IMG/VR virus record: IMGVR_UViG_3300047565_000115
Span: 1-54,945 of that record
Origin: a virus
Lineage: Duplodnaviria > Caudoviricetes
Length of the DNA: 54,945 nucleotides
Direction: 5' to 3' (one strand)
This document shows, piece after piece, positions 4,427 to 18,706 of the stretch; within the stretch, counting starts at the first letter, position 1, and each line of letters starts with the position of its first letter. The translations under genes were made by a program, and so were the position numbers. The notes under the pieces were generated by a model. That model saw nothing but the letters and a program-made list of their open reading frames with translations. It was not told where the DNA came from and did not search any database.

Positions 4427-4854
4427 ATGAACAATTAACACTAAAAGAACTATCGGCTTATTTGCCGTATGATATAAAGGTTTCATATTTTGATGCAGAA
4501 CGAGAATTAATTCAGTTTTGTAAAATTATGGGTTTTAATGGGGATGAATTAACAATATCAGATGGAGAGTATGAATATGTTGTAGGATTTGACGATATAA
4601 AACTTTGCTTACTTCCACTCTCCCACCTCACAAAAGAGATAGAACACAAAGGAGAAAGGTTTGTGCCGATTGATTTTATACAAGATAAGTATTACACTCA
4701 AAATTGGAGTGACCAACTTATAAGGTGCATTGAAGATAATAGATGGGTTTTCCATTTAGACTACTCATTGATTTTACAATTGCACGAATGGCACTTTGAC
4801 ACATTCGGACTACTCGACCTATGTTTGGCGGTTGACAAAACAACAATTAAATAA
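4423..4854 (+). CDS. Hypothetical protein, paralog of 52707..53156
   Basis: LSAYLPY..LLPLSHLT..LHEWHFDTFGL. Confidence 0.75.
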   Translation: MNEQLTLKELSAYLPYDIKVSYFDAERELIQFCKIMGFNGDELTISDGEYEYVVGFDDIKLCLLPLSHLTKEIEHKGERFVPIDFIQDKYYTQNWSDQLIRCIEDNRWVFHLDYSLILQLHEWHFDTFGLLDLCLAVDKTTIK

Positions 4855-4863
4855 ATTAAAACT

Positions 4864-6021
4864 ATGATACTACGCAAAGACTACGTAAAGATAATTAAAG
4901 AGGGCAAAGCACAAGTGGAGGTTGAAAAGACCGAGGAACATAATAAAATGTTGAATATTATTTTTCCATATAGGCATAAACTTCAATCAGATGGTGAAGC
5001 AAGTACAATGTCAAGATACTTTTGGTTAGACCACGACGATAAAAAATACGGTTATTCTTGTAGTTCTAATTTTATTTGCACACTCCCAATAATCCAGGCC
5101 TCCGACATAATCTTAGACAACACTGTAATAAAGGTAGAATCAGAAGAGCATGGTAAAAAGGTTATTGAGTGGTGGAAAGAGCAGGGGGCTATTAATAAAA
5201 TAAATTTATTAGGCAACTCAAATAACTATTATGGTGTACACTATAGAAATATTAGGATGTTTTATCAAGAAGAAATTGAAAGTAAAAAAATAATCACTCT
5301 CCCCGAAACATTCCCTTCTAAGTGGTATTTAAAGATAACTGATTCTAACAAAGAGGTGGCTAATGAGTGGAGAAGGAGTGTGGCTAAAAGTCATCAACAT
5401 ATGGGACTTGCTACCAATAATTTGCTCTTATCTAAACATCATGATGATAGTTCTTGTGGGTTCTTTAATACTTATACGTATTTTAAAAGCAATTATTTTA
5501 ATGAGTATTATTCTGACTATTTAGAACTAACCACCGAACAATTTTTAGAACACATTTACAAACCATTTAAAGCAAAACAAAAAGTATCTAAAATTGTATC
5601 AGAAGTTGTTAAAGAAAAAATTAAACAAGAAAACAAAATGAGAACAATAACTTATCAGCAAGGGCAAGAGATAATAAATATAGCCTGTCAAGATTGGAAA
5701 AAAGAATTAGCTAAAATTTGGGGTCAAAACATTGTTTTAAGAATAGAAATTAAAGTAGAACAAGAATTCTACCAGAGAATGCGTAAGGCTTGCACAAAAG
5801 AGCAACACGAACTATTTGACAAGATATTTGGAAAGGAGAAAGAGGAAATTAATTTGTGGAGCGGAGCAGGTTTGGATGGGTATGATTTATTTAATAAAGG
5901 GTTAAATGATGATGATAGATTTTTAATATCTATTTTGGGTGGCTATGGTGATAGTTTTTATTTACATAATGGTTTTAAATGGGTATTAGATGGTAATATT
6001 TTAAAAGTTGAACACAAGTAA
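4864..6021 (+). CDS. Mosaic hypothetical protein
   Basis: 385-aa ORF with repeated VEKTEEH/VESEEH segments. Confidence 0.7.
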   Translation: MILRKDYVKIIKEGKAQVEVEKTEEHNKMLNIIFPYRHKLQSDGEASTMSRYFWLDHDDKKYGYSCSSNFICTLPIIQASDIILDNTVIKVESEEHGKKVIEWWKEQGAINKINLLGNSNNYYGVHYRNIRMFYQEEIESKKIITLPETFPSKWYLKITDSNKEVANEWRRSVAKSHQHMGLATNNLLLSKHHDDSSCGFFNTYTYFKSNYFNEYYSDYLELTTEQFLEHIYKPFKAKQKVSKIVSEVVKEKIKQENKMRTITYQQGQEIINIACQDWKKELAKIWGQNIVLRIEIKVEQEFYQRMRKACTKEQHELFDKIFGKEKEEINLWSGAGLDGYDLFNKGLNDDDRFLISILGGYGDSFYLHNGFKWVLDGNILKVEHK

Positions 6022-6234
6022 CACACAAAGAATAGAACTTCTTGCAAAGATAGCGGAGAAACGTGGGAGCAATGACAAACTTGATTTGTGGTTGGTGAAA
6101 CATTGGACGAAACAAATAGAGATTTTAAAAGAAAATGAAAGCGGAGGAAAGACTTGAAAAAATATTACTTGACTTAAATATTGGGTTAATAACAGTGCGT
6201 GTCGCAAAAACTAAAATATTAAAACTATTTAAAG

Positions 6235-6657
6235 ATGCGGATTAATTTAGTAAAAACTTCAATGGGTTTAAAGCCTATTGACGATGAAGACATAAGGAAG
6301 CTAAAGAAGATAGAGGAGGGCGAAATAGTAGTTGCGGAATATAAACTTGCAAGGAATTACCGTTTTCATCGCAAGCTATTCGCTTTATTAGACCTTATGT
6401 ATAGCAACGACTGTTTAGAACTAACAAAGGAGCGTTATCGAAAGGAAATGCTTATTTGTTGTGGACACTTTGATACTTACAATAGTTACGATGGTTCAGT
6501 AGTAAGAGAAGCTAAATCTATTTCTTTTGCTTCGATGGATGAAGACTCGTTCAATTCCTTGTATCAAGATATGTTGCAAGTCGCTTGTTTACGATTAAAA
6601 GTCGATGAAGGAACAATAACAGAAGAACTCAAATATACATTAGGTAAATTCTTTTGA
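6235..6657 (+). CDS. DUF1367-family phage protein (NinB-like)
   Basis: RNYRFHRKLFALL and KSISFASMDEDSFNSLY signatures. Confidence 0.75.
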   Translation: MRINLVKTSMGLKPIDDEDIRKLKKIEEGEIVVAEYKLARNYRFHRKLFALLDLMYSNDCLELTKERYRKEMLICCGHFDTYNSYDGSVVREAKSISFASMDEDSFNSLYQDMLQVACLRLKVDEGTITEELKYTLGKFF

Positions 6658-7104
6658 TTTAAGCCACCAAACAACGCCCACAAGACACGATAATACAAAA
6701 GTTGATAGATATGCATATAATACTAAAAACTACTCTTAAAAACTGAAAATTCACACACACTACAAAATAAGAATAAAGTCAAAAATGAAATGACTTTCAA
6801 GTAATCCAAAAATCGTTCAAAAAATTTAGGACTTGCTAATACTTCCTTATATGGGCTAAAAAAAAACAAAAAATATCAACTAAAATTTTAGGTTAACTAA
6901 TTTCTTAGTTGATTATTCTTGTTTAGACTAATTAAAAATAGAATAAATCTTTTTTTATTACACTATTCCAAGAAATTTATATGATTCCAGGGTGTTTTGT
7001 TGTATTATTCTAATAATGATAAAAAGATTTAAAAATAAATATAAAAAAGATTTTGATATTAAATTTTTATACTATTAATTTGCATCACTAAACAATTAAA
7101 CAAA

Positions 7105-7275
7105 ATGAGGACATTAACGGTTAAAAGGCTTAAATCAGAAAAAAAAGAAGTTTATTTTAGTAGTGAATTAAATCAATTATATATCATGATTGATAAAGTT
7201 TTATATGATTGCGATATAGATTTAAAACCCAAAACATCACATAGAATGTCAAAATTAAACCTTATTGTATTATGA
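7105..7275 (+). CDS. Small hypothetical protein (56 aa, not in ORF track)
   Basis: ATG after AAACAATTAAACAAA; stop overlaps ATG of 7272. Confidence 0.55.
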   Translation: MRTLTVKRLKSEKKEVYFSSELNQLYIMIDKVLYDCDIDLKPKTSHRMSKLNLIVL

Positions 7276-7454
7276 AATTATCAGAAAAATTTAAAGAAAA
7301 ATTAATCTATTTTTATATCCTTTTAATCCTTTCATTTATGTTGTTAGGATGCAATGTGAAATTGGCAAAAAGGCAAAAAACTGAAGACGAAAAACAATTA
7401 GAGTTTTTCAAAGAACAAATTAAAATCAAACAATATTATTTAACAAAAATTTAA
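7272..7454 (+). CDS. Small lipoprotein
   Basis: Hydrophobic stretch + lipobox LLGC. Confidence 0.6.
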   Translation: MKLSEKFKEKLIYFYILLILSFMLLGCNVKLAKRQKTEDEKQLEFFKEQIKIKQYYLTKI

Positions 7455-7467
7455 ACAATTATCAATT

Positions 7468-7677
7468 ATGTATGCTCAATTATTTTATTTATCAGAAGAG
7501 GGTAATTCCTATCCACAAACAGAAAGGTTATTAATAGATGATAGTTTAGAAGGCTTGTTAACCATTCCACTGGAGTGCGAAGGGAACAATGCTTATTGGG
7601 AATATTCTCATTTATCAGAGAGGGAATTTTCTCTATTTGGTGGCAATAGTATAGTAGATTTTAATTCAAATATTTAA
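7468..7677 (+). CDS. Small acidic hypothetical protein
   Basis: ORF after TTTAAACAATT motif. Confidence 0.65.
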   Translation: MYAQLFYLSEEGNSYPQTERLLIDDSLEGLLTIPLECEGNNAYWEYSHLSEREFSLFGGNSIVDFNSNI

Positions 7678-7690
7678 ACAATTTACTGAA

Positions 7691-7981
7691 ATGGAAAAAG
7701 ATAGGTTAAATTTTCACTTAGAACAAGCAAAAGGTCGTTTCTCTCATTTTATTAAAAACATCAATAAAATAGAATCACAATGGATTCAATATGTAGGCTT
7801 TGAAATAATAAAAGGGCGTTTATATTTTAAGTTTGAAAGTTCGCAAAATAGCCTTTCTTTTATGGTAGAGGCGGGCTGTCTTATTTCTGATTTAGATAAT
7901 AGTGAATTTACTCTTTTTAATCATGCATCAGAAATATATGACTATTTCAGAACGGTAAAATATTTAATTTTAGACAAATAA
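7691..7981 (+). CDS. Hypothetical protein
   Basis: ORF after TTTAAACAATT motif. Confidence 0.65.
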   Translation: MEKDRLNFHLEQAKGRFSHFIKNINKIESQWIQYVGFEIIKGRLYFKFESSQNSLSFMVEAGCLISDLDNSEFTLFNHASEIYDYFRTVKYLILDK

Positions 7982-8012
7982 CAATTAACAAAAATTTAAA
8001 CAATTAAAACAA

Positions 8013-8840
8013 ATGAAAACAAAATTTAGTAATTCGGAATTAGTACACAAATTTGCAGAACGTAGCCAAAGTAGTGGAGAATCTTGTAATATGTTTTTTA
8101 GAAATACAAATGAAATTTATTCATACGGATACCACTATTTATTGGGGAAATTTATTGACATAAACGGCGAAGCTTGTATCTTAATAGACAATAGGGGCTA
8201 TTCAAATACAACCTCTAAGCATATAAGCCTATTAATTCAAGGGGCAAGGCAATATAAACAGTATTTTACCTTAGATGTTGAATTTCGACACGTTGAAAGT
8301 AGTATTTTAGCTAACTATAAAAATTTGTTGAAAGCCAAAAAGCCTGAATTGTATATTGGTCAAATAATAAGCAAGTTCGAAAGTCTTATTAATTATCCTT
8401 TATTTGATACCAAACTAAAAAAGGACGATAAATTTAAGGCAATTGAAAAAATATATAAATCAGTTTCGTCACCAGAACAAATAGCAAAAGCAAAAGAGGT
8501 ACAAAAAGCAATTGAGTTAAAAGCTAAAAAAGCCGCAACCAAGAAATTAAAGGAGGATTTAAAGAAATTTGAAAACTATGAAATTGACTATCTAAGAAAT
8601 GAGGAAGACTTTTTAAGAATAAGCCAAGACAAAACACAAGTTGAAACCTCACAAAGTGTAAAGGTGGATATAAAAGAGGCAAAAATCCTTTATAGCATGA
8701 TTTTAGCGAATAGGGATATTAAAGGTCATAAAATCGGTAATTATACCGTAATTTCAATAAACGGCACTTTAAAAATTGGCTGTCATCACATTAATATAGA
8801 ATCAATGCACAAAGTAGGAAAACAAATATTAAACTATTAA
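8013..8840 (+). CDS. Hypothetical phage protein
   Basis: 275 aa; IYSYGYHY..YSNTTSKH..GTLKIGCH motifs. Confidence 0.75.
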   Translation: MKTKFSNSELVHKFAERSQSSGESCNMFFRNTNEIYSYGYHYLLGKFIDINGEACILIDNRGYSNTTSKHISLLIQGARQYKQYFTLDVEFRHVESSILANYKNLLKAKKPELYIGQIISKFESLINYPLFDTKLKKDDKFKAIEKIYKSVSSPEQIAKAKEVQKAIELKAKKAATKKLKEDLKKFENYEIDYLRNEEDFLRISQDKTQVETSQSVKVDIKEAKILYSMILANRDIKGHKIGNYTVISINGTLKIGCHHINIESMHKVGKQILNY

Positions 8841-8852
8841 ATAATAATAAAA

Positions 8853-9350
8853 ATGAGCAATTTAATAAGATTAAAACAAATAGAACCGTTTTCGATTAGG
8901 CTTAATTTGTGGCTTAAAAATTGGTTTAAACAACACGAACAATATTTTGAATTTTCGGATTTTGACGATTTCGATTTATACGAACAAAGGGAATATTTGG
9001 AAAGATTAAAAACGAGATTTAGCGAAGAAAGAAAAATAACAGTTTGGTCGGGTTGTTCGGATAATTCAATTTTTGGAGATAGTACTGTAAATACTTATTT
9101 TCGAGCATGGCATGACTATAATCACATAGTGCATAATTTGGATTTTAGTTTTGAATCTGAAAGTTTAGTTTGTAGTATTCAAATGGCGGAACTTCCAAAC
9201 CATTACCATTTTGAAAAATTACTTTTATATGCCGATATTATAGGGCAAAACTTGTATTATAAACAACATAATGAATTTCCAATTAACCAAAGGTTATTTG
9301 TTTTAAACTTCTTAGAAAATCCATTTTTAACCATTAATACAAAATTGTAA
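8853..9350 (+). CDS. Hypothetical protein with putative metal-binding motif
   Basis: FRAWHDYNH..FSFESE..IGQ motif. Confidence 0.7.
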   Translation: MSNLIRLKQIEPFSIRLNLWLKNWFKQHEQYFEFSDFDDFDLYEQREYLERLKTRFSEERKITVWSGCSDNSIFGDSTVNTYFRAWHDYNHIVHNLDFSFESESLVCSIQMAELPNHYHFEKLLLYADIIGQNLYYKQHNEFPINQRLFVLNFLENPFLTINTKL

Positions 9351-9571
9351 TGAAATTAGAAATAAAAGAATCAGAAATAGCTTCGACTATCAAAGAAATA
9401 AGAAAGGCACAAAGGTATAGTATTAAGGATTTCGCCGAAAAATGTAAGTTCCCTAATTATCAATATCTGAGCAACTTAGAAACAGGAATCAAGCCCGCCA
9501 CATTTAAAAGTCTTGCAAAGGTATGCAAAGCGTGTAATTTTGAAATTAGTATCACTATTAAAGGTAAGTAA
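9350..9571 (+). CDS. XRE/HTH_3 transcriptional regulator
   Basis: IKEIRKAQRYSIKDFAEKC..YLSNLETG..TFKSLAKV. Confidence 0.85.
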   Translation: MKLEIKESEIASTIKEIRKAQRYSIKDFAEKCKFPNYQYLSNLETGIKPATFKSLAKVCKACNFEISITIKGK

Positions 9572-9574
9572 AAA

Positions 9575-9922
9575 ATGAAAAAAGAATATTTAAAAAACGA
9601 TAATCAAATATTAAACGAAATATTTAGACGACTAGGATACTTCCAATGTTGGCAATTAAATTACTCTAAATCTTTAATTATTTTAACACCTAGTGAGGCT
9701 AAAAGATTAGTATCAAAGGGGATATTAAAACCAAACAGCAAAGAAGTTGAAAGGGTATCTAATTGGTATTATTTAGATAAAAAAGGTATTGATTTATTTA
9801 AACCAATTACACAAAATAGAAACAAAAAAATATCTCCATTATTAAACGAAAAAATGTTTAATGGATTCCAATTAATAGATTTTAATAAATTAAACATTAA
9901 AGGAAATGAGAAGCAAATATAA
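9575..9922 (+). CDS. Hypothetical protein (possible wHTH)
   Basis: AKRLVSKGIL..WYYLDKKG pattern. Confidence 0.65.
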   Translation: MKKEYLKNDNQILNEIFRRLGYFQCWQLNYSKSLIILTPSEAKRLVSKGILKPNSKEVERVSNWYYLDKKGIDLFKPITQNRNKKISPLLNEKMFNGFQLIDFNKLNIKGNEKQI

Positions 9923-10190
9923 AATTTGTTATGGCATTTGGGGTAGAATGAACTGTTTAATATACTCCTCTGCTTCGTTAGAATTTCCTAAAAACGAGGA
10001 ACAAAGAAAACAAATTGAAATAACTATAAAACAATTAACTGATAATAAAACAGAAAAGAAAGTTTTATACACTAAAAGATTCGGGCATTTTGCAACAAAG
10101 AAAGGTACTGAAATTGTAAAGGAGGTTGATTTTATACTACCTTACCACGAATCAGAAAAGATACTAAATCAGATTAAAAACATAATTTAA
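9906..10190 (+). CDS. Hypothetical protein
   Basis: ORF in operon. Confidence 0.65.
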   Translation: MRSKYKICYGIWGRMNCLIYSSASLEFPKNEEQRKQIEITIKQLTDNKTEKKVLYTKRFGHFATKKGTEIVKEVDFILPYHESEKILNQIKNII

Positions 10191-10202
10191 ACAAATAAAG
10201 AA

Positions 10203-10394
10203 ATGAGAACAGTATATGAATTAAACCAAGACGAATTAAACGAACTAAGATGGGCATATTATGAGCAATTATGCGAAACAAGTCCAGACGTATTGGAAGA
10301 CTGCGATAGTCCAGAAGATATTCCAGAAGATATAATACTTAATCATTATGATGGAATACATTTTGAAGATGAAGACTTTTTTTGTAATATTTAA
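10203..10394 (+). CDS. Small highly acidic protein
   Basis: 63 aa, D/E-rich. Confidence 0.7.
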   Translation: MRTVYELNQDELNELRWAYYEQLCETSPDVLEDCDSPEDIPEDIILNHYDGIHFEDEDFFCNI

Positions 10395-10405
10395 TTAATA
10401 AAGAA

Positions 10406-10639
10406 ATGAGTATTATATTAAGTTTTGAAACCGCAAAAAAGTACCTAATAAATAATAAAGTTTATAAAGGTGCAATTATGACTGATTCTACTAATAAGAC
10501 TATTTATCTAACAATTCCGTATGGTCAAAAAAAAGGAGGTCAAACAAAAATCTATAAAATACCAAGTTTACACAATTGTAATAAACTTATTAATTATTGG
10601 CGTAGAAATGTAGACCAAACAAAAGTTTTTAATTACTAA
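10406..10639 (+). CDS. Hypothetical basic protein
   Basis: Last ORF before terminator. Confidence 0.6.
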   Translation: MSIILSFETAKKYLINNKVYKGAIMTDSTNKTIYLTIPYGQKKGGQTKIYKIPSLHNCNKLINYWRRNVDQTKVFNY

Positions 10640-10645
10640 TCAATT

Positions 10646-10672
10646 AACCTCCACTAAAAAGGAGGTTTTTTT
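10646..10672 (+). terminator. Intrinsic terminator
   Basis: AACCTCC-N8-GGAGGTT followed by T-tract. Confidence 0.8.
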
Positions 10673-10836
10673 ATTATATCTGTACTATGTATCACACAGT
10701 ACCAATAATAACACCTATAAGGCATAGTTAATTAAAAGTAAGTAGATAGGACTAAAATAAAAAAATAATGTATTGTAGGTACTTAAAACAAAGAAATAAG
10801 CGTATGTTTGTTGTCGTTTAATTAAACGAATTATTA

Positions 10837-11238
10837 ATGAACAATACAAAACAAGTAAATTCAAGGTCACTAGCGAACTTAAAACCTATTCAAAAGGGCG
10901 AAGTAAGAAACACAACAGGTATAGCAGGACGTAAAAAAGGGCTTGAAAGGTTGATCAAAGAAGCATTAACATTACAAGACTTAAAGGATATTGTTACCAA
11001 TGTAGCGAAGGAAGCTAAGGAAGGAAATATAAAAGCAGCAGAGTTTATATTTGATAGATTGTATGGTAAACCAACAGTGATGATTGATTTAATAGATTCC
11101 AAGGGTCAAACGTTTATCCAAAACAATTTCAATGTTGAAGTAAAGGGCAAAAGTGAGGATGACTTGAGCCAATTACTCATTGAATTGTCATCCGAGGAAC
11201 AAAATGAAGACGAAGAAAGTAGTGAAAACTTAGAATAA
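10837..11238 (+). CDS. terS: Terminase small subunit
   Basis: SLANLKPIQKGEVRN..GRKKG N-terminus and GNIKAAEFIFDRLYGKP (DUF5681-type); upstream of terL; promoter TATGTTTG at 10803-10810. Confidence 0.7.
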   Translation: MNNTKQVNSRSLANLKPIQKGEVRNTTGIAGRKKGLERLIKEALTLQDLKDIVTNVAKEAKEGNIKAAEFIFDRLYGKPTVMIDLIDSKGQTFIQNNFNVEVKGKSEDDLSQLLIELSSEEQNEDEESSENLE

Positions 11239-11246
11239 TACAATCA

Positions 11247-11274
11247 ATTTAACATAATATAAATTATAGAACAT
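11247..11274 (-). other. dif: dif-like XerC/XerD recombination site
   Basis: Minus strand ATGTTCTATAA-TTTATA-TTATGTTAAAT: canonical XerD arm, 6-bp spacer, XerC-like arm. Confidence 0.8.
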
Positions 11275-11375
11275 ATTATTCTTGGTTTTGTCACAATGTT
11301 AACTACCCCCCAAAAGGGAGTGGTTGGGTCGTTACCTACCCACAAGATAATTTCTAAAATCCAAAAAGTCTTTTC

Positions 11376-11738
11376 ATGAAACATTCATTCATTTTACCCT
11401 TACAAGTGTATCCTTTCGATATATTATTTAGTATTGGTCAAACTGATGCGGAACTACTTGTTCTTTTGTCTAAGTATGGTCTTGATGAATATATTGACGA
11501 GTTTATTCTTTCTAAAACAGTCAGAGGTAGGACAGTAATGTTGCCAAGTAACCAAACAGTTATTCGTTTAAAGTCAAACTATGATGTTGGGGTATTGTGT
11601 CACGAGGTATTCCATGCAGTTAGTTTTATTTTAAGTAAGGTTGGTATTCCATTGGAGGTTATGAAGTCAGACGAGGCTTATGCTTATTTGATTGAGTATG
11701 TTATCAATTGTTTTATAAAAGAGGTAAAGAGGCGATAA
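11376..11738 (+). CDS. HExxH-motif protein (putative zincin-like)
   Basis: CHEVFHAV..EAYAYLIEY. Confidence 0.65.
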   Translation: MKHSFILPLQVYPFDILFSIGQTDAELLVLLSKYGLDEYIDEFILSKTVRGRTVMLPSNQTVIRLKSNYDVGVLCHEVFHAVSFILSKVGIPLEVMKSDEAYAYLIEYVINCFIKEVKRR

Positions 11739-11962
11739 TTTTTTTTATAAATTTTTCAAAGTGTTTTTGTGATACTTCTTTCGAAACAATCATCTAATGG
11801 TAAAACAACGTTTGGGATAGGTAAGAATGGTGTAATAAGTAGTCAAAATATCTTAATAGATAGATAGAGGGACGTTTTGGTTAAATAACTTATTATTAAT
11901 TAGTTACAAGAAAAAAATAACATTTACATACACAAATAAAAACATTTGTAGATACACCTTTC

Positions 11963-11998
11963 TTGCATTATATATACAGATTCACTATATTTGTGAAT
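11963..11998 (+). promoter_or_regulatory. Promoter directly abutting ATG, overlapped by ATTCAC-N7-GTGAAT repeat
   Basis: TTG 11963-11965, 20 nt, TATATTTG 11986-11993, ATG 11997. Confidence 0.6.
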
Positions 11999-12419
11999 GA
12001 TTAGGAAGAAATTTACAAGCCAAACAATTGTTGTTGATGAAGAAGGTGAGGTCAAGGATTCTTCTTTAAAGTCTCATTATTATAACAACCGTAAGGGTGA
12101 AAAGTTTTATATTATGTATAGTGGAATAGAGGAATTGTTTATGGGTATGGAGTCTTCCGAGATTCGTGTGTACGGTTATTTATTAAGGTATAGTAGTGGT
12201 TTGACTTTTCAGTTAAATAAAAGTGAACGTTTGTCTATGGCTGAAAAAACTGGATTAAATGAAAGGACGATTTATAATCTTATACCAAAACTTCTTCAAA
12301 AGAAAATATTATTAAGGGTTAAGAATGATAGATTTATTATGAATCCTGAATTAGTATTTTATGGTGGCAGAGACCCAAGAGATGAATTTTTAATTAAAGT
12401 AAAAAACGGACAAGTATGA
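11997..12419 (+). CDS. RepL-like HTH replication/maintenance or regulatory protein
   Basis: MAEKTGLNERTIYNLIPKLLQKKIL..FIMNPELVFYG matches RepL-type wHTH. Confidence 0.65.
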   Translation: MIRKKFTSQTIVVDEEGEVKDSSLKSHYYNNRKGEKFYIMYSGIEELFMGMESSEIRVYGYLLRYSSGLTFQLNKSERLSMAEKTGLNERTIYNLIPKLLQKKILLRVKNDRFIMNPELVFYGGRDPRDEFLIKVKNGQV

Positions 12420-12640
12420 AAGATGAAATAATTGTTAGTGTAACTATTAATAATAGTAAGTACGAATTTGCGGATATAAAAGAACTTGCTTGTTTTTTTC
12501 AAGAGGTTATTGAAGATTTAGAGACTGATTTCGAAATAGAGACTACTCTACTACAAAGAGAACACGCACTTGAAGTTATGAAATTAAAGTTAGAGATTCG
12601 TGAATTAAAGAAGAAGTTAAAGAATGAGAAAAGAAATTGA
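12416..12640 (+). CDS. Hypothetical coiled-coil protein
   Basis: ATGA-coupled. Confidence 0.65.
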   Translation: MKDEIIVSVTINNSKYEFADIKELACFFQEVIEDLETDFEIETTLLQREHALEVMKLKLEIRELKKKLKNEKRN

Positions 12641-12797
12641 GTTGGTTTTATACGAAATAAAGCATGGTATCTTTCCGCAACCATTTGAAGTTTCTTTTGA
12701 AGAATATATTTTAATTGAGGAAGCGGTTAAAAAGAAGAAAAAGGATTTTGAATTGTTGTATAGTTATATGGATAAATGGAGTAAATTAATAGCATGA
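12624..12797 (+). CDS. Small hypothetical protein (57 aa, not in ORF track)
   Basis: MRKEIELVLY..; stop overlaps terL ATG (ATGA). Confidence 0.55.
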   Translation: MRKEIELVLYEIKHGIFPQPFEVSFEEYILIEEAVKKKKKDFELLYSYMDKWSKLIA

Positions 12798-15268
12798 CAG
12801 AAAAAACCAAAGAGCAAGTTATTAGGGAGGCTAAGATGGAGATTATCCGCTTGCAGTTAGCGAGGTTAAGTATGAAGCACTTTGTTCCACACGTTAACCA
12901 AAACTACAAAGCAGAATGGTTTCATACTTATATCATGTCGAGGTTGGATGCTTTTGAAAGGGGAGAGGTTAATAAGATAATGATTTCACTTCCACCCCAA
13001 ACAGGCAAGGAAATAGCTGATAATGAGCGAGTTATGACAAAAAATGGCTTCAAAAATCATGGCGACTTGGTTATTGGAGATTATGTTTTTGGATTAGATG
13101 GTAAACCTAAGAGGGTTTTAGCTTTATCTGAAAAAGTCCTTAGCACTCATAGGATTACCTTTAGCGACAACACGACTATTGATTGTCACGAGAACCATGA
13201 ATGGGTAGTCTACAAAAAGCGAGGCAATGAATTAGTAAAGTTAGAAACCAAACAAATGATTGATGACTTAACTTTTCAAAACGGAAATAAGAAAAGTTAT
13301 ATGTATTCACTTCCTTTCTTTGAGCCAATAGAAATGGAAGAATCTGATTTACATGTTCATCCTTATTTATTGGGTTTTTGGCTTGGTGATGGTGATAAAA
13401 AGGCAAGCAGGATATGTAAACCAAAAGCAAGTCTCGAAAAGATAATCAACAAGATTAGTTCTCTTGGTTACGAGTGCTCTACGCCATATAAAACAAGCAA
13501 CGATTATGACCTATGGTACACTAATGTTTATGGACTCGTAGGGCTTAATAAACAGATTGGAGTTTATGATAATAAACATATACCCGAACAGTACTTGTTG
13601 GCTTCGAAACAACAAAGGTTAGAACTACTTGCTGGCTTACTTGATAGTGATGGGTGTTGTTACGAGGATATTCGATATAAGAATAGCCAAAGAGTCGACT
13701 TCTCAAATACGAATAAAGGATTAGTTGAAGCAGTAAGATTTATTTGTAATTCCTTTGGGTGGAATACTTATTGGTCAGAAGTTCCACCTACACTAAGTAC
13801 AGGTGGAATACAAGGAAAGCAAATTAATTATAGAGTTCACTTTTCACCGACAGAACCAATACCAACTGTAAGACTAAATATAAGAGGGTGTGCAGTAAAA
13901 AGAAAACGCAAGATAGAAAAGATTGAACCACTTGGCGACAAAGCTACGATGGGTAGATGTATTCAAGTTGAAGATGGTATTTATTTGGTAGGAGAGACTT
14001 TTATTCCAACTCACAACTCCGAGTTAAGCACACGTACCTTTATTCCCTATGCAATAGGCAAGAACCCACGCAGAAAGATAGCAGTAGTAACTTATGGGCA
14101 ACAGTTGTCAAATTCTTTTAATAGAGATATAAAGGCTAATATGATGTCTAAGGAGTACAAGAACCTATTCCCTGATATAGTCTTAGGCACAAGGGCTGGC
14201 GATATGGCTATGTTAGAGAACTCAATGGAGCGTATGGACATAGGCAGGATAGTTGATGGCAAGTTAGTGCGTTCTGATGGTTTTATTAAGACTACTGCCG
14301 TTACTGCCCCCTTGACTGGCACGCCCGTTGATATGCTTGTGATTGACGACTTGTACAAGGACATGGAGGAAGCACAATCGGAAACGGTTAGACAAAGTAG
14401 ATGGGATTGGTGGTTTAGTGTTGCTAACTCACGACTTCATAACGATAGTCAAGTTTTGTTCTTGATGACAAGGTGGCACGAAGATGACCTTGCAGGAAAA
14501 TTATTAAAGACACAAGGTCACGAATGGGAGGTTATAAGGATGCCTTCCTTAAAAGATAACTTCCAAGCCGACTATGACCCACGACAAGAGGGTGAGGCGT
14601 TATACCCTTCGAGACATTCAAGAGAAAGAATGTTGCAGATTAAGAAAGACAACCCAACTACTTTTAATGCTCTTTACCAACAAGACCCTAAGCCACCCGA
14701 AAACTTGTTGGTGTTTGGAGATTGGGGGGAACTTAACGATTGGAAACCACAAGGTACTAAATTCTACGGATTGGATTTGGGATACACCAACGACCCAACT
14801 GCATTAACGGAGATATGGGTAGAGAAAAGGTCGGGACAAAAGCCGATGATATATTTAAGGGAACTAATATACAAAACAGGCTTAAACAATAGAACCCTGA
14901 TGGAACTATTTAAAGCCGTTGGGGTAAAAAAGAACGATATTATAGTTTGCGACACTAACGAGCCTAAGACCCTAAATGAGTTCCGAGAGAATGGCTACAC
15001 TATTCGCAAAGCTATAAAGGGCAAAGACAGTATAAAGGCTGGTATTAGGAAGCTAAAAGAGTTTGACGTAAGATTTAGTAAGGACAGTAGAAACCTTTTG
15101 TATGAGCGAAACAATTACGTGTACGTCATGAGTGGAGGCAGAATAACCGATGTACCTACTACTATCAATAATCATGGAATTGATAGCGTTAGAACGGCCG
15201 TCTACACTATGTTCTACACAGGAAAAAGAACTGGTAACTCAAAAAAAAGAGGGATAAGAAGTGCATAA
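12794..15268 (+). CDS. terL: Terminase large subunit with intein
   Basis: Walker A PPQTGK|S split by intein, Walker B LVIDD, MTRWHEDDLAG, ALYQQDP, nuclease GLDLGYTNDPTA and NHGIDSVR. Confidence 0.95.
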   Translation: MTEKTKEQVIREAKMEIIRLQLARLSMKHFVPHVNQNYKAEWFHTYIMSRLDAFERGEVNKIMISLPPQTGKEIADNERVMTKNGFKNHGDLVIGDYVFGLDGKPKRVLALSEKVLSTHRITFSDNTTIDCHENHEWVVYKKRGNELVKLETKQMIDDLTFQNGNKKSYMYSLPFFEPIEMEESDLHVHPYLLGFWLGDGDKKASRICKPKASLEKIINKISSLGYECSTPYKTSNDYDLWYTNVYGLVGLNKQIGVYDNKHIPEQYLLASKQQRLELLAGLLDSDGCCYEDIRYKNSQRVDFSNTNKGLVEAVRFICNSFGWNTYWSEVPPTLSTGGIQGKQINYRVHFSPTEPIPTVRLNIRGCAVKRKRKIEKIEPLGDKATMGRCIQVEDGIYLVGETFIPTHNSELSTRTFIPYAIGKNPRRKIAVVTYGQQLSNSFNRDIKANMMSKEYKNLFPDIVLGTRAGDMAMLENSMERMDIGRIVDGKLVRSDGFIKTTAVTAPLTGTPVDMLVIDDLYKDMEEAQSETVRQSRWDWWFSVANSRLHNDSQVLFLMTRWHEDDLAGKLLKTQGHEWEVIRMPSLKDNFQADYDPRQEGEALYPSRHSRERMLQIKKDNPTTFNALYQQDPKPPENLLVFGDWGELNDWKPQGTKFYGLDLGYTNDPTALTEIWVEKRSGQKPMIYLRELIYKTGLNNRTLMELFKAVGVKKNDIIVCDTNEPKTLNEFRENGYTIRKAIKGKDSIKAGIRKLKEFDVRFSKDSRNLLYERNNYVYVMSGGRITDVPTTINNHGIDSVRTAVYTMFYTGKRTGNSKKRGIRSA
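13010..14017 (+). mobile_element. Class 3 intein (336 aa) with LAGLIDADG homing endonuclease
   Basis: Begins EIADNERV, block B HENHEW, block F GRCIQV, block G IPTHN|S; PYLLGFWLGDG and LLAGLLDSDG. Confidence 0.9.
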
Positions 15269-15328
15269 GTCAGAAATTTTTTGTATTATTGCAGTTTAAT
15301 TTTTGCAAATATTAAATTTTTTATTATC

Positions 15329-15757
15329 ATGAAAAAACTGCTTTTTATTCTTGCTCTCTTTGTGGGAACATCGGCTATGGCACAATCAACGTATCCGACT
15401 ATCAACCCTAACAAGTTATCTAACCTATTGTCTTTTGTTGGTCATGCGGTGACAGACACGATTACTAACTCTACGGCAGAGTATCAGTACGGTACTGTAA
15501 CAGGGACTAATACTGCTATTACTGTTAGTGTATTATTGACCAAAGGAACAGGTACTCCTGCTGGCACCCTTTATTTTCAAGGCTCTCTTGATGCAACCAA
15601 TTGGAAAACTATCGCATCTGATACAATGACAGATACTGCAACCCAATCATTAATTTATAATCAAGCACCTACTTATTACACGTATTACCGAGTCTATGTG
15701 GCAGCGTCAGGAACGCAAAGTACTTACTTAAATACGAAAGTTCTTGTTAAGAAATAA
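15329..15757 (+). CDS. Signal-peptide-bearing Thr-rich beta protein
   Basis: MKKLLFILALFVGTSAMA|QS Sec signal; FQGSLDATNW motif; ATG 15329 preferred over TTG 15281. Confidence 0.75.
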   Translation: MKKLLFILALFVGTSAMAQSTYPTINPNKLSNLLSFVGHAVTDTITNSTAEYQYGTVTGTNTAITVSVLLTKGTGTPAGTLYFQGSLDATNWKTIASDTMTDTATQSLIYNQAPTYYTYYRVYVAASGTQSTYLNTKVLVKK

Positions 15758-15761
15758 AACT

Positions 15762-15788
15762 AAGCCTCACTCAACAGTGGGGCTTTTT
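15762..15788. terminator. Terminator between convergent genes
   Basis: AAGCCTCACT-CAAC-AGTGGGGCTT + T-tract. Confidence 0.7.
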
Positions 15789-16030
15789 AATTCCTTTACT
15801 ATCTCCTTCCATTGCCAATCACCATTCGACTTATTGTAAATATCTATTAGCTTCTTTAGTGACACCCCACTATTAAATACGGTCACATACTGCCACCAAA
15901 ACACCTTTCCATAAGGTTGTATTCCAAACTTAGTCTTAACCTTCTTCAAGGCGTTTACGCAAGCAATATAATTACTATAATGTCCTAACCTTAAAAGGTC
16001 TTTTGGCTTTATTTCTTCGTTGTTGTCCAT
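15767..16030 (-). CDS. Small protein divergent from the structural operon, probably leaderless
   Basis: Fills a gap; minus-strand TACTTTTG at 16043-16036 just before ATG 16030. Confidence 0.65.
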   Translation of the reverse strand: MDNNEEIKPKDLLRLGHYSNYIACVNALKKVKTKFGIQPYGKVFWWQYVTVFNSGVSLKKLIDIYNKSNGDWQWKEIVKELKSPTVE

Positions 16031-16156
16031 GTTCACAAAAGTAATAAACTATTCACTTATTTAAAAGCCATTTTAATAAAATATTTCTTTAAACGTAGTT
16101 TTGGGTGTTCGGACGAGGGGCAAGTCCATTATTATTAACATAAAAAATTTAACGAT

Positions 16157-16783
16157 ATGGCTTTTGACCCTTTTAAATGTGGTACGGTTGCAAGTTTCCC
16201 AGAGATTTTAGCTGCTGACGTAGCTTGTTCTACTTCGATAGACCAAACACAAAAACTTGCTTTTGTAGAGACTGCTGATATAGCTGCTTTTGATGCTACC
16301 ACTATCCTTGCATCGGCTACTTGGACACCATTGGTTGCAGATAAGAGCATTGTACTTAGTCCATTTGTATCTGACTTCGTAATTACCGCAGGAGACTTCC
16401 AAGAAGAAGCAAACGAAAACAACTTAGATGGCATTCCTCAATATATGGGTAATGGATTCTCGGTAGTAGAGTTTAACTTTAAAGGTGCTGTTCCTGCAAC
16501 AATCGCTAAATTAGACCAATTGACTAACCTAAGTTCAAGAATCGCAGGTATCACTGGTTTACATGTTTACTTCTTGGGAAGAAATTCAAGAATCACTGCT
16601 AAAACAACTGGCGTTGCCATTCCGATTTATAACTTTGCAATCAAAGACTTGGGTTCGGAAGGTAGAAATAAGCCTAATGTTTACGCAGCGAGATTCTACT
16701 TGAAAGAGGACTGGTCTAAAGAGATTAAGACTTTTGACGCATCATTTGACCCAATCGCTACATTGGTTAACCCTGCATCATAA
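16157..16783 (+). CDS. Major structural protein, probable tail tube (B40-8 MP2-like)
   Basis: C..C..QTQKLAF, LSPFV, NLDGIP motifs recalled from B40-8-like phages; high-expression codon bias; promoter TAGTTTTG at 16096-16103. Confidence 0.6.
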   Translation: MAFDPFKCGTVASFPEILAADVACSTSIDQTQKLAFVETADIAAFDATTILASATWTPLVADKSIVLSPFVSDFVITAGDFQEEANENNLDGIPQYMGNGFSVVEFNFKGAVPATIAKLDQLTNLSSRIAGITGLHVYFLGRNSRITAKTTGVAIPIYNFAIKDLGSEGRNKPNVYAARFYLKEDWSKEIKTFDASFDPIATLVNPAS

Positions 16784-17016
16784 TGGCAAAGGCAACAATA
16801 GTAACTTTAGCGTGCAATGGCGTAGATAGAGACTTTGTTATAGATAAAGCAGAGTCTCTATTGAGGTACGAAGCACAAATAAGGCTATCAAATTGGAAAT
16901 TAAAGGACGATAAATATATATTCGAAGATGGAGTTATCAAACGAGCAAATAGTAAGCCTAATCAAAAATCCACTGAATCAGAAGTGGATACGGAGGGCGA
17001 TAACACATCAGAATAG
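16783..17016 (+). CDS. Small hypothetical virion-module protein
   Basis: TAATG coupling; tail overlaps portal start. Confidence 0.65.
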   Translation: MAKATIVTLACNGVDRDFVIDKAESLLRYEAQIRLSNWKLKDDKYIFEDGVIKRANSKPNQKSTESEVDTEGDNTSE

Positions 17017-18706
17017 GCTAAAGTTTCACTCACAAGAAAATATGAGTGAAGAAGAAGCTAAAGAGAATCCTTATTTCAATGAATGGCTAAAAAACGCAAA
17101 GGCAAATCTTTCAGAAGATAAGTTTGCCATGTTCTCGTCTCTTATTGAGTATCCACTTCCTTCAACTGGAGTGGTAGATTCAATAAAAGACCAATACGCT
17201 AAGTTTTTCGAAGCGAAAGACCAGTACTTTGACATTATTACTAAAGATGAATCTTTAAAGAAAGAACTTAAAAGCTACTTGACTTCTATTGGTGAAGAAA
17301 AGTTTTGGAGAGAGCAAGCATTAGACTTGATGTTTTCAAGTGTCAACTCTATTGTACTTGTAAACCTTCCAGTCTTTGATACTGACGAGAATACGACTAA
17401 GCCGTTCTTTGAGATTGTAGAGATAGACATTGTTCACGATGTAAAAACCGAGAACAAGAAACTTGAATACTTAATCTATCGTCACGAAAAGAAAGGAGAT
17501 AAGCAATACTACGTGGTTGTTGACTCCAATTATTACAGGATGTATTGGCAAGATGGTGAAAAGGTTCAAATGGAATCAGAAAGCCTTCATGGACTTGGTG
17601 AAGTTCCTGCTAACTTCTTGTTTCAAGAACCACTTACGAATACTAACGACATTGTAAAAAGAAGCGGTATAAGTAGCGTCTTAGGGAATCTTGACACGTT
17701 CGTAAGGAAATACACCTCTAAGGAGTATCTTGACCTTTATAATTCGTTTCCGATTTATTGGAAGTACGAGGAAGACGAAGACGATGAATTTTTCACCACT
17801 ACCGTTAAAGAAGCGATAGAAGACACTATCAATAATCCGATAGAGGTAGAAAGAATCGCTGCTGGTTTACTTGACGAAAGGAAGAAAAAGAATCGCTTAT
17901 TGGGTGCTGGTACTGTAATAAGTGTTCCTGCCCCTGCCGATAATACCGAACCTGACCTTAGAGACCCAGTAGGTATAATAAGCCCCGACAAGACCTCTCT
18001 TGACTATAATACGTCAGAGGTAGAAAGATTAGAGGACAGAATATACCGAAAGGCAACTGGCAGACCACAAGAAAAAGAGATAGCAGATAGACCAGTTGCA
18101 AGTCAGATACAATCGCAGTACGAAGGAGAAAGAAATGTGTTACTTTGGTTGTCATCTCAATTTTCGTTTTCAAGAGAGTGGCTTGTGGGTACAATATGCA
18201 AAATGTATTCAGACCAAGAAGTTACGGTAACGGCAGACTTCGGTTCAGAGTTCTTTATTGAAGACGAAAAGTCGGTTCTTGAAAACTTCAAGTTATACAA
18301 GGAAGCAGGAGCAAGTCAAGGTGCAATTGGAATGAGAAATGATAGTTTTATTCAAGTGTCTACTAAGGGGAAGCCAGTAGAGCGTGAAAGACTTCAAATT
18401 TTAAAGCATTTAGAGCCTATGCCAACACTTTCATTAGCAGAGGCAATAGAATATGCCACGAGTGACTTTATAGACTTCAAGCAGCTTGATTTAAAGATAA
18501 ACTTTAGTGAGAGAGTAGATAAATTCGAAAGAGAGAACGGTTCAATAATTGCTTATAAGCAAAACGAGCCATTTAGTAAAAAAATAGACGCAATTAAATC
18601 AATATTATATAGTTATGGCAAGGACAAAAAGTTCGACAACGGCCTCGGAAGTAACAAGTCAATGGGGCAACTTGGACAAGGAGCAAAAACAATTACTGCC
18701 AAGTAA
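16928..18706 (+). CDS. Portal protein
   Basis: 592 aa, position before scaffold/capsid, helical composition. Confidence 0.75.
   Translation: MELSNEQIVSLIKNPLNQKWIRRAITHQNRLKFHSQENMSEEEAKENPYFNEWLKNAKANLSEDKFAMFSSLIEYPLPSTGVVDSIKDQYAKFFEAKDQYFDIITKDESLKKELKSYLTSIGEEKFWREQALDLMFSSVNSIVLVNLPVFDTDENTTKPFFEIVEIDIVHDVKTENKKLEYLIYRHEKKGDKQYYVVVDSNYYRMYWQDGEKVQMESESLHGLGEVPANFLFQEPLTNTNDIVKRSGISSVLGNLDTFVRKYTSKEYLDLYNSFPIYWKYEEDEDDEFFTTTVKEAIEDTINNPIEVERIAAGLLDERKKKNRLLGAGTVISVPAPADNTEPDLRDPVGIISPDKTSLDYNTSEVERLEDRIYRKATGRPQEKEIADRPVASQIQSQYEGERNVLLWLSSQFSFSREWLVGTICKMYSDQEVTVTADFGSEFFIEDEKSVLENFKLYKEAGASQGAIGMRNDSFIQVSTKGKPVERERLQILKHLEPMPTLSLAEAIEYATSDFIDFKQLDLKINFSERVDKFERENGSIIAYKQNEPFSKKIDAIKSILYSYGKDKKFDNGLGSNKSMGQLGQGAKTITAK

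What the first reader, a model, noticed from the sequence alone, without database searches (positions are those of the whole stretch)
11247..11274. dif-like XerC/D site in an integrase-less tailed phage, next to terS and a RepL-like gene
Seen: the minus strand reads ATGTTCTATAA-TTTATA-TTATGTTAAAT, 8 bp after the terS stop. Known: TTATGTTAAAT is the canonical XerD arm of dif (E. coli GGTGCGCATAA-TGTATA-TTATGTTAAAT); the spacer here differs at one position and the XerC arm keeps the inner ATAA. I see no tyrosine or serine recombinase in the window. Inference: this ~55-kb siphovirus borrows host XerCD, either to integrate at chromosomal dif (an IMEX lifestyle best known from filamentous and small ssDNA phages) or to resolve dimers of a circular episome. 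The RepL-like gene 0.7 kb away fits the episome option.
Basis: partly seen in the sequence, partly recalled or inferred. Interest (0 to 1): 0.85.

Follow-up and report, generated by a model that had tools for sequence, protein, structure and literature searches.

The report
Host dif site in tailed phage
A 55-kb tailed phage of freshwater Bacteroidota with no recombinase of its own carries a full-length copy of its hosts' chromosome-untangling site (dif), so it very probably borrows the host XerC/XerD enzymes for its own DNA.

Summary
The 28-mer is real (11247-11274, minus strand) and is not a chance look-alike. Its inner 21 bases are the exact core of the chromosomal dif site of Bacteroidota. 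That core was found in at least 120 species genomes, 103 of them titled Bacteroidota. It occurs once per genome, and GC and AT skew flip sign at it. The phage's outer XerC arm also fits the Bacteroidota consensus. Two diverged relatives in other metagenomes show no listed change in the site while the neighbouring gene drifts. At least four other lineages of tailed phages without a tyrosine recombinase carry the same core in non-coding gaps. Three of them have GGGNAGGG (FtsK guide) motifs aimed at the XerD arm.

No tyrosine or serine recombinase, ParA, XafT or FtsK-gamma was found in the window. The record is incomplete (CheckV 52%). No integrated relative was found, and the site is a perfect dif, not the degenerate kind typical of integrating elements.

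Best reading: a working XerCD (probably FtsK-dependent) site used on the phage's own circular DNA. Integration at host dif is the main rival. The terS label is unproven.

This scan has noted the same phenomenon on other Bacteroidota phages. My five literature searches found no tailed-phage case in print.

The parts
11247..11274 (-). Complete dif-type site. XerC arm 11274-11264 (ATGTTCTATAA), spacer 11263-11258 (TTTATA), XerD arm 11257-11247 (TTATGTTAAAT).
   Evidence: Searches give the sequence. Searches show identity with the chromosomal dif of Bacteroidota. One search gives the statistics. One search shows it is kept in two relatives and shared with other abundant contigs. One search shows it is the only site above 12 bits in the window (36.0 bits; next best 11.3).
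11225..11289 (.). Extended imperfect palindrome around the site: arms 11225-11240 and 11274-11289, 88% complementary. It lies inside the block 11223-11300, where the two relatives show no listed change except at 11246.
   Evidence: inverted repeat I6; 13 of 15 matched, shuffle maximum 10; hairpin -14.9 kcal/mol, z -3.4, 1 of 200 shuffles as good. for conservation. Not a general feature of the other phage sites.
11334..11341 (-). GGGTAGGT, a 7-of-8 match to the FtsK guide motif GGGNAGGG. It lies on the XerC side and points at the site. The window has no perfect motif anywhere.
10837..11238 (+). That function is not shown.
   Evidence: weak PHROG hits and a DUF5681 hit below cut-off. (nearest Atlas clusters are DUF5681 viral proteins).
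11376..11738 (+). 120-aa HExxH protein (phrog_1365). It is an accessory insert: both relatives lack it, with 16-17 other bases in its place.
   Evidence: joints 11375/11735 and 11375/11736.
11997..12419 (+). 140-aa RepL-like winged-helix protein behind a TAnnTTTG-type promoter box. It may be a replication initiator or the true small terminase.
   Evidence: PF05732, 26.6 bits, cut-off 20.3; weak HTH_36 hit. for the sequence.
12794..15268 (+). Large terminase carrying an intein. It marks the start of the packaging and structural module 1.5 kb downstream of the site.
   Evidence: a relative skips 1008 bases between 13005 and 14014.

Best explanation
The 28-mer is a working copy of the host phylum's dif site. 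Host XerC and XerD bind its two arms and recombine two copies of it, most likely by the ordinary FtsK-activated, XerD-first route used for chromosome dimers.

The phage uses this on its own circular DNA. It turns dimers and multimers, which its own Erf/exonuclease/NinB recombination genes would create, back into monomers. That lets the genome be inherited by dividing cells during a plasmid-like, carrier or pseudolysogenic phase without a recombinase or partition system of its own. In logic this is a ColE1 cer or P1 lox that is a full chromosomal dif served entirely by the host.

Shown:
- The site equals the host dif.
- It is conserved in relatives.
- It recurs in other tailed phage lineages that lack a tyrosine recombinase.
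- In several of those lineages FtsK guide motifs are aimed at the XerD arm.

Inferred:
- XerC/XerD binding and recombination.
- FtsK dependence in this particular phage.
- The circular persistent phase.

I put about 0.85 on 'real Xer substrate' and about 0.5 on 'its job is to keep the phage's own DNA monomeric'.
For: 1. Identity with the host site.
By title, 103 of the 120 are Bacteroidota.
- There is one exact copy per genome in 5 of 5 genomes.
- GC and AT skew flip from plus to minus at it in both complete chromosomes tested. Pooled GC skew over the 120 loci is +0.050 on one side and -0.049 on the other.
- 38 of 401 sampled Bacteroidota genomes hold the phage 28-mer at up to 3 mismatches, each exactly once. 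The reversed-pattern control found 0 of 401.
- A Flavobacteriales MAG (L089) matches 27 of 28 bases.

2. Not chance. The expectation is 2.3e-6 per window, and the XerC arm is better than 77% of true chromosomal sites.

3. Conservation.
- Two roughly 90%-alike relatives from other studies show no listed change in 11247-11274.
- One of them shows 20 listed changes in 11118-11222.
- 23 of the 26 differences in that piece are listed.

4. In the same metagenomes, other contigs of much higher summed depth match only about 11239-11279 and have unlike flanks on both sides (58 of 72 in X1; 281 of 298 in X3). This is as expected of bacterial dif sites.

5. Recurrence.
- 71 IMG/VR contigs hold the 21-mer.
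- 28 are one G001-like group. G001 is 34,021 bp, has a 289-bp terminal repeat and is 100% complete by CheckV.
- G016, G017 and G422, and separately G433 and G454, are further tailed lineages with the site in long non-coding gaps.
- 1 of 50 records searched has PF00589.

6. FtsK guides.
- 33 of 71 contigs have perfect GGGNAGGG motifs up to about 200 bases beyond the XerD arm, aimed at it. These are all 28 G001-like contigs plus G433, G454 and three others.
- 0 of 71 have one within 250 bases in the other orientation.
- The motif and its role are as described in PMC5357621 (passages read).

7. Orientation. In the window, G016, G017 and G422 all or nearly all genes and the G-rich strand are on plus, and the site is on minus. 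Motifs with up to 1 mismatch (29:12, 21:1, 23:5, 31:6) would therefore lead FtsK to the XerD side.

8. The site is a perfect dif. From established knowledge of IMEX elements, partly seen in PMC6744903 (passages), that suits FtsK-driven resolution. An element integrated between two perfect sites would be excised.
Against: - Nothing shows a circular persistent form of this phage.
- No ParA was found.
- There is no relative among 72,556 plasmids.
- All genes lie on one strand and no repressor module was identified, a layout also common in purely lytic phages.
- The window has no perfect GGGNAGGG at all, so FtsK involvement here rests on analogy and on 1-mismatch motifs that follow the G-rich coding strand anyway.
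- A control G-rich motif is as polar around chromosomal dif as GGGNAGGG. The FtsK motif of Bacteroidota is therefore not established.
- Lytic packaging needs concatemers, so monomerisation has no obvious use in a purely lytic cycle.
- No binding or recombination was tested.
Confidence: 0.5

Rival explanations
1. IMEX-type lysogeny. Host XerCD recombines the phage site with the chromosomal dif, so the phage integrates there without its own integrase. Because the site is perfect, this would probably be reversible, a hop-on, hop-off way of hitch-hiking on the chromosome.
For: - No recombinase in the window.
- The site matches host dif in both arms and the spacer.
- Small integrase-less phages of Bacteroidota are reported to integrate at dif-like sites: PMC3091885 and PMC9719478 (passages read).
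- Microviruses are 7 of the 14 strong matches to the site among GenBank phages.
- No partition gene was found, which an integrating phage would not need.
Against: - No integrated relative was found. The portal pattern scan of genome contigs gave none. 0 of 401 Bacteroidota genomes matched the portal profile. 0 of 401 matched the G001 portal. No window or G001 protein, and only two weak hits from seven other phage genomes, lie beside 120 chromosomal dif sites.
- Contigs in four runs bridge the site inside phage DNA, and none of the listed pieces is a phage-host hybrid.
- The non-Mu tailed contigs with the site that I examined are classed as free (linear or terminally repeated), not as proviruses.
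- A prophage between two perfect dif sites should be excised by FtsK-XerCD at division (established knowledge; compare).
- Guide motifs aimed at the XerD arm in other lineages point to the FtsK route, which known IMEXs avoid.
Confidence: 0.25
2. A lox-like cyclisation site. The site lies next to the packaging genes, so it would fall inside the terminal redundancy of headful-packaged DNA. Host XerCD would then circularise the injected genome, as Cre-lox can for P1 (recalled, not checked in a paper).
For: - The site sits just upstream of the packaging module in the window, G001, G431, G016 and G017.
- The phage has no recombinase for this of its own.
Against: - In G422 the site follows the tail genes instead.
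- In G433 and G454 it sits in divergent gaps whose relation to packaging is unknown.
- Septum-bound FtsK is an unlikely helper for freshly injected DNA.
- The phage has Erf, exonuclease and NinB for homologous cyclisation.
- Neither pac sites nor DNA ends are known. One search used contigs, which cannot show ends.
Confidence: 0.08
3. A passenger or a different kind of element. It could be a captured piece of host DNA with no present use, or a palindromic terminator or regulatory site that merely coincides with dif.
For: - The site lies within a longer palindrome that folds well as RNA right after an ORF stop.
- The whole block 11223-11300 is conserved, not only the 28-mer.
Against: - The chance expectation is 2.3e-6.
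- The site is kept unchanged in relatives while neighbouring codons drift.
- It recurs in at least four other tailed lineages with unrelated flanks.
- Co-evolving guide motifs lie beside it in three of them.
- No U-run follows the hairpin.
Confidence: 0.1

Closest known systems
Chromosomal and chromid dif with XerC/XerD and KOPS-guided FtsK (E. coli dif; Vibrio cholerae dif1/dif2; review PMC5357621, passages read; predictions for 19 Bacteroidetes in PMC3025954, passages read)
   Same: It has the 28-bp 11-6-11 layout. The 21-base core is identical to the dif of many Bacteroidota, and the XerC arm lies within their consensus. There is one copy per replicon. In sister phage lineages guide motifs are aimed at the XerD arm.
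   Different: It sits on a 55-kb tailed-phage genome. There is no skew switch at it and no perfect guide motif in this window. The replicon is not known to be maintained in dividing cells.
IMEX attachment sites: CTX, VGJ and TLC phages of Vibrio (PMC6744903, PMC4246890); Bacteroidales microvirus proviruses (PMC3091885); Flavobacterium phage PhiCjT23 (PMC9719478); dif-type double-jelly-roll phages (PMC12715192)
   Same: A virus with no recombinase of its own carries a look-alike of the host dif and depends on host XerCD.
   Different: Those viruses are small non-tailed ssDNA or double-jelly-roll elements. They are found integrated between dif and a dif-like repeat, usually with an imperfect arm or spacer and an FtsK-independent route. 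Here the phage is tailed, the site is perfect, no integrated form was found, and no XafT (DUF3653) is present.
Plasmid multimer-resolution sites cer (ColE1) and psi (pSC101)
   Same: Host XerCD acts on an extrachromosomal circle to keep it monomeric. No partition system is needed.
   Different: By recalled knowledge (one abstract seen), cer and psi have diverged cores, about 200 bp of accessory sequence bound by PepA with ArgR or ArcA, and do not use FtsK. Here the core is the chromosomal one and no accessory region is known.
P1 loxP-Cre, and the Xer-like recombinases of plasmid prophages (PMC8026635, passages read)
   Same: A tailed phage with a single recombination site that serves dimer resolution, and in P1 cyclisation (recalled), of a circular prophage.
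   Different: Those phages encode their own tyrosine recombinase and partition proteins. This one has neither and would rely wholly on the host.

Membership tests
dif (XerC/XerD dimer-resolution site) | 28 bp made of two 11-bp partly palindromic arms around a 6-bp spacer | tested here: met
   By my reading of the sequence, 7 of 11 arm positions are mutually complementary.
dif (XerC/XerD dimer-resolution site) | Matches the dif of the host lineage | tested here: met
   The 21-base core is identical in at least 120 genomes, 103 of them Bacteroidota-titled. The XerC arm lies within the consensus. 27 of 28 bases match L089. 38 of 401 genomes match at up to 3 mismatches, against 0 for the control.
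dif (XerC/XerD dimer-resolution site) | Single copy per replicon | tested here: met
   One site of 36.0 bits; the next best is 11.3 bits. One match at up to 3 mismatches.
dif (XerC/XerD dimer-resolution site) | Lies at the replication terminus, where the skew changes sign | tested here: not met
   GC skew is positive along the whole window. In the bacterial genomes the criterion is met. A small replicon that may replicate in one direction need not show it.
dif (XerC/XerD dimer-resolution site) | FtsK guide motifs polarised toward the site | tested here: inconclusive
   There is no perfect GGGNAGGG in the window. One 7-of-8 motif points at the XerC side. Motifs with up to 1 mismatch favour the strand that leads to the XerD side by 29:12, but that strand is G-rich anyway. 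The criterion is clearly met in the G001-like, G433 and G454 phages.
dif (XerC/XerD dimer-resolution site) | Bound and recombined by XerC/XerD | not testable with these tools
   Needs EMSA and recombination assays.
IMEX attachment site | The element has no recombinase of its own | tested here: inconclusive
   No PF00589 or PF00239 in six frames, and no transposase among the ORFs scanned. But the record is 52% complete by CheckV and cut at an ORF.
IMEX attachment site | Integrated copies flanked by dif and a dif-like repeat | tested here: not met
   None was found in those searched. No listed contig piece is a phage-host hybrid.
IMEX attachment site | Imperfect arm or spacer, or an activator such as XafT, that escapes FtsK-driven excision | tested here: not met
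   The site is full consensus. No DUF3653 and no FtsK_gamma.
Plasmid resolution site (cer/psi type) | Xer core on an autonomously replicating circle | tested here: inconclusive
   A RepL-like ORF, a replication initiator and a primase-helicase are present. No ParA and no plasmid relative. Circular carriage is not shown.
Plasmid resolution site (cer/psi type) | Accessory sequences for PepA/ArgR/ArcA beside the XerC arm | not tested
   No model of such sites for Bacteroidota was at hand. The flanks are not shared between phage lineages.

The most novel reading that the evidence does not exclude
Several unrelated lineages of apparently 'lytic', recombinase-less tailed phages of Bacteroidota, this one included, have a hidden persistent phase. 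In it the circular phage genome behaves like a mini-chromosome. It carries the host's own dif, and in some lineages a compact FtsK-guide-plus-dif cassette. At cell division it is monomerised, or shuttled reversibly in and out of the chromosomal dif, entirely by host XerCD-FtsK. A dif site would then be a sequence marker of carrier-state or pseudolysogenic phages that integrase-based lifestyle predictors miss.
Probability: 0.4. Interest if true: 0.85.

Novelty: new variant of a known kind. Interest (0 to 1): 0.7.

Why it matters
Exploitation of host Xer by viruses is known for small non-tailed phages that integrate at dif. A full, perfect host dif on large tailed phages that lack any recombinase would extend this to the dominant class of phages. 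In sister lineages it is coupled to FtsK guide motifs, which points to a use other than classical integration.

It offers a simple and testable explanation for how some Bacteroidota phages could persist in dividing cells without integrase or partition genes. It gives a sequence marker for such lifestyles in metagenomes. It also gives a handle on host assignment, because the phage site mirrors the host dif.

As a by-product, the data give a consensus for one widespread dif type of Bacteroidota and show that skew polarity converges on it.

Tried and rejected
Relatives by protein. Single-protein scans of IMG/VR with the two flanking ORFs and with the portal found nothing. The portal alignment A1 found nothing in viral, metagenome or genome contigs.

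The exact 28-mer is in no other IMG/VR contig.

Proviruses that first looked like integrase-less elements at dif (G011-G015, G018-G020, G436, G437). G011 encodes a Mu-type transposase and a MuB-like protein, and the other nine records are its kin by tblastn. Their dif has a XerC arm identical to that of a Pseudoalteromonas genome. I dropped them as support.

PWM hits of 15-16 bits in G016 are gene-start motifs, not second dif sites.

The flanking inverted repeat is not shared by the other phage sites.

GGGNAGGG polarity around chromosomal dif is real, but a control motif is equally polar. I therefore do not claim it as the Bacteroidota FtsK motif.

Searches for XafT (DUF3653), ParA (PF01656) and FtsK_gamma in the window were empty; ParA and FtsK_gamma were also empty in G001, G016, G433 and G454.

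The blastn search of GenBank phages with the site returned mostly AT-rich noise until filtered at E <= 0.1.

Literature. Five searches and passages of eight papers showed no tailed phage with a host dif. This is not proof of absence. The dif sequences of Bacteroidetes in PMC3025954, PMC3091885 and PMC9719478 are in figures or supplements that I could not see, and they may already give the consensus derived here.

The small shares of X5 and X6 were laid. Habitat is not inferred from them.

Full report
THE OBSERVATION

The minus strand of 11247-11274 reads ATGTTCTATAA-TTTATA-TTATGTTAAAT. It starts 8 bases after the stop of ORF 10837-11238, inside a 137-base gap before ORF 11376-11738.

- The XerD arm alone is expected 0.29 times.
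- ATAA-N6-arm with one mismatch allowed is expected 0.10 times.

WHAT THE WINDOW IS

The window is a whole IMG/VR record. It is classed linear, with CheckV completeness 52%, and its last ORF is cut by the end of the record. All sizeable ORFs lie on the plus strand.

The genes identified are:
- Replication initiator, primase-helicase, Erf, exonuclease and NinB.
- Large terminase with an intein.
- Portal, head proteins and an endolysin; long ORFs between the head genes and the endolysin look like tail genes by size and position but were not scanned.

The closest terminases in GenBank phages belong to Porphyromonas and Bacteroides phages, at 35-39% identity. A TAnnTTTG box precedes ORF 11997. The DNA is held by freshwater metagenomes.

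No tyrosine or serine recombinase is found in six frames. Nor are DUF3653/XafT, ParA or an FtsK gamma domain.

The RepL-like ORF 11997-12419 passes the Pfam cut-off.

THE SITE IS THE HOST PHYLUM'S DIF

I scanned one genome for each of 185,579 species with the 21 bases ATAATTTATATTATGTTAAAT.

By title, 103 of the 120 are Bacteroidota, spread over Flavobacteriales, Cytophagales, Chitinophagales, Sphingobacteriales and Bacteroidales. The other 17 are beta- or gamma-proteobacteria, unclassified or odd bins.

Evidence that this is the real chromosomal dif:
- Five of five genomes tested hold exactly one exact copy. The control pattern gave 0. One genome has two further 2-mismatch copies on other contigs.
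- In two complete chromosomes, GC and AT skew change from plus to minus at the site.
- Pooled over the 120 loci, GC skew is +0.050 on one side and -0.049 on the other.
- G-rich octamers, including GGGNAGGG, converge on the site: 40:3 on the left and 6:54 on the right. A control octamer is equally polar.

The outer XerC arm in these 120 sites has the consensus T-T-G-T-C/T-C-T. The phage's A-T-G-T-T-C-T uses the first or second commonest base at every position. It scores above 77% of the true sites, with a background probability of 0.0012.

One Flavobacteriales MAG (L089) matches the phage site at 27 of 28 bases. In an even sample of 401 Bacteroidota genomes, 38 hold the phage 28-mer at up to 3 mismatches, each exactly once. 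The control gave 0 of 401.

A Markov model of the window expects the 21-mer 2.3e-6 times. Chance is excluded.

CONSERVATION AND INDEPENDENT SIGHTINGS

I laid the contigs of four runs on 6000-18000.

Near-identical phage contigs bridge the site in two samples, so the record is not a chimera.

Two diverged relatives from other studies (X5 record 19 and X6 record 23) cover the site. No difference is listed inside 11247-11274, nor in 11223-11300 apart from 11246. By contrast, X6 shows 20 listed changes in 11118-11222. 23 of the 26 differences in that piece are listed, so at most three are unaccounted for.

Both relatives lack ORF 11376-11738. One lacks the terminase intein.

Separately, several other contigs of much higher summed depth match only about 11239-11279 and run on unlike on both sides (58 of 72 in X1; 281 of 298 in X3). 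They carry T at 11246, which corresponds to the commonest base next to chromosomal XerD arms. These are best read as dif sites of abundant bacteria in the same water.

THE SAME THING IN OTHER TAILED PHAGES

71 IMG/VR contigs hold the 21-mer.

The G001-like group accounts for 28 of them. G001 is 34,021 bp, has a 289-bp terminal repeat and is 100% complete by CheckV. It has no PF00589. Its site lies in the 719-bp divergent gap just upstream of a 172-aa terS-like gene, the terminase and the portal. G431 is a distant member of this group.

Other lineages are:
- G016 and G017 are both about 39.5 kb and 100% complete. G016 has every listed ORF, and G017 most of them, on the plus strand. The perfect consensus site lies on the minus strand, in gaps of 0.7-1.0 kb ahead of the packaging genes, the same layout as the window. 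G016 shares primase and exonuclease relatives with the window.
- G422 is kin of G016 and G017, but its site follows the tail genes.
- G433 (64 kb) and G454 (62 kb) carry the site in divergent gaps.
- G446 (GC 46%) has three tandem sites with a proteobacterial-type XerC arm.

Of the 50 records searched, one, a 10.8-kb provirus, has a tyrosine recombinase. 21 of the 71 were not searched.

Ten further records are Mu-like: G011 carries a transposase and the other nine are its kin by tblastn. I do not count them.

Among GenBank phages, strong matches (E <= 0.1) are 14 records: seven microviruses, six Lak megaphages and one Pseudoalteromonas phage.

FTSK GUIDES

In all 28 G001-like contigs, one to four perfect GGGNAGGG motifs lie 10-60 bases beyond the XerD arm, on the strand that points at it. 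In G001 these two are the only such motifs in the genome.

G433, G454 and three further contigs show the same within about 200 bases. None of the 71 contigs has a motif in the other orientation within 250 bases.

The review PMC5357621 (passages read) gives GGGNAGGG as the motif that loads FtsK and directs it to dif, where its gamma domain activates XerD.

The window itself has no perfect motif. It has one 7-of-8 motif on the XerC side. Motifs with up to 1 mismatch favour the plus strand by 29:12, which would lead FtsK to the XerD side because the site is on the minus strand. The same geometry holds in G016, G017 and G422. The plus strand is G-rich anyway, so this is only suggestive.

HOW IT MOST LIKELY WORKS

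That the site is a substrate of host XerC/XerD is strongly supported by sequence, conservation and recurrence, but it is not tested. What it is for remains inferred.

Points against integration:
- No integrated relative was found in any search, and no listed contig piece is a phage-host hybrid.
- The non-Mu tailed contigs I examined are classed as free, not as proviruses.
- The site is perfect, so a prophage between two such sites should be excised by FtsK-XerCD.
- In sister lineages the site is wired to FtsK, the route of dimer resolution.

Points against a stable plasmid prophage:
- No ParA.
- No plasmid relatives.
- A gene layout that is also common in purely lytic phages.

I therefore favour use on the phage's own circular DNA during some phase in dividing cells (about 0.5). 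Reversible integration at host dif is the main rival (about 0.25). Lox-like cyclisation and 'passenger or other element' trail behind.

COMPARISON WITH WHAT IS KNOWN

By sequence, the site is a member of the dif family. It fails the terminus-skew criterion, as a small replicon may.

It works like cer/psi or P1 lox in logic. It differs from cer/psi in having a chromosomal core. It differs from lox, and from the plasmid prophages described in PMC8026635, in having no recombinase of its own.

It shares the 'borrow host Xer' idea with IMEX phages but fails two of their defining features.

My five literature searches found no tailed phage with a host dif. Earlier notes of this scan (e1-5931245, e1-6090161, e1-6080507, e1-6010760) describe the same phenomenon on other Bacteroidota phages. 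I read them only after reaching my own view. They are unchecked AI notes, and they mean this window is a further member of a class the scan has already met.

VERDICT

The Xer-site reading is supported. The integration reading is not supported. The episome-type reading is favoured but unproven. The terS label is unproven. Interest 0.7.

Noticed in passing
window 13006-14013 (inside terminase ORF 12794-15268): A relative in run X5 skips exactly 1008 bases here, so an intein-free terminase allele exists. This fits the Hint and LAGLIDADG hits and gives the intein borders.
   Followed up: partly
window 11376-11735: The 120-aa HExxH ORF (phrog_1365) is absent from both diverged relatives, with 16-17 unrelated bases in its place. 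It is an accessory gene inserted about 100 bases from the dif site, not at it.
   Followed up: partly
G011-G015, G018-G020, G436, G437 (loci L230-L246, L251-L254, L261-L263, L272-L273): Ten Mu-like records (G011 with transposase and MuB-like genes, the others its kin; GC about 42%) carry a dif whose XerC arm, in six of them, is identical to that of a Pseudoalteromonas genome. In the six records I measured it lies about 310-430 bases beyond the F-like head gene. Their gene order looks like a Mu genome with one arm inverted. G011 has a second dif-like 28-mer exactly at the other end of the record.
   Followed up: partly
G446:9040-9171 (locus L264): Three tandem, same-strand dif-type sites lie within 132 bases in a 38-kb phage contig (GC 46%, proteobacterial-type XerC arms).
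   Followed up: no
G001-like contigs, 10-60 bases beyond the XerD arm (for example L222; L126-L192): The number of tandem GGGTAGGG-type motifs beside the site varies from 1 to 4 between otherwise 90-100% identical phages. The genes just left of the site are also swapped between members: an amidoligase plus amidotransferase pair in some, a relative of window ORF 8013-8840 (phrog_7247) in others.
   Followed up: partly
Prevotella Lak megaphages (hits H128-H133): 540-kb Lak phages hold a 26-base, 92% match to the site. Large circular phage genomes may also carry a dif.
   Followed up: no
G016:11655-12388 (locus L247): The 0.7-kb gap that holds the dif also holds iteron-like direct repeats (TTGTTAATCCC-type units and TATTTTAAGCTA twice). 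This suggests that an origin and the dif share one non-coding hub.
   Followed up: no
window 4423-4854 and 52707-53156: Two paralogous ORFs of the same PHROG (phrog_10841) lie near opposite ends of the record. No terminal repeat was found.
   Followed up: no
G010 contigs C4 and C9 (loci L198, L199): A Dyadobacter genome has two extra 2-mismatch dif cores on other contigs (564 kb and 70 kb). These may be resolution sites of secondary replicons or plasmids.
   Followed up: no
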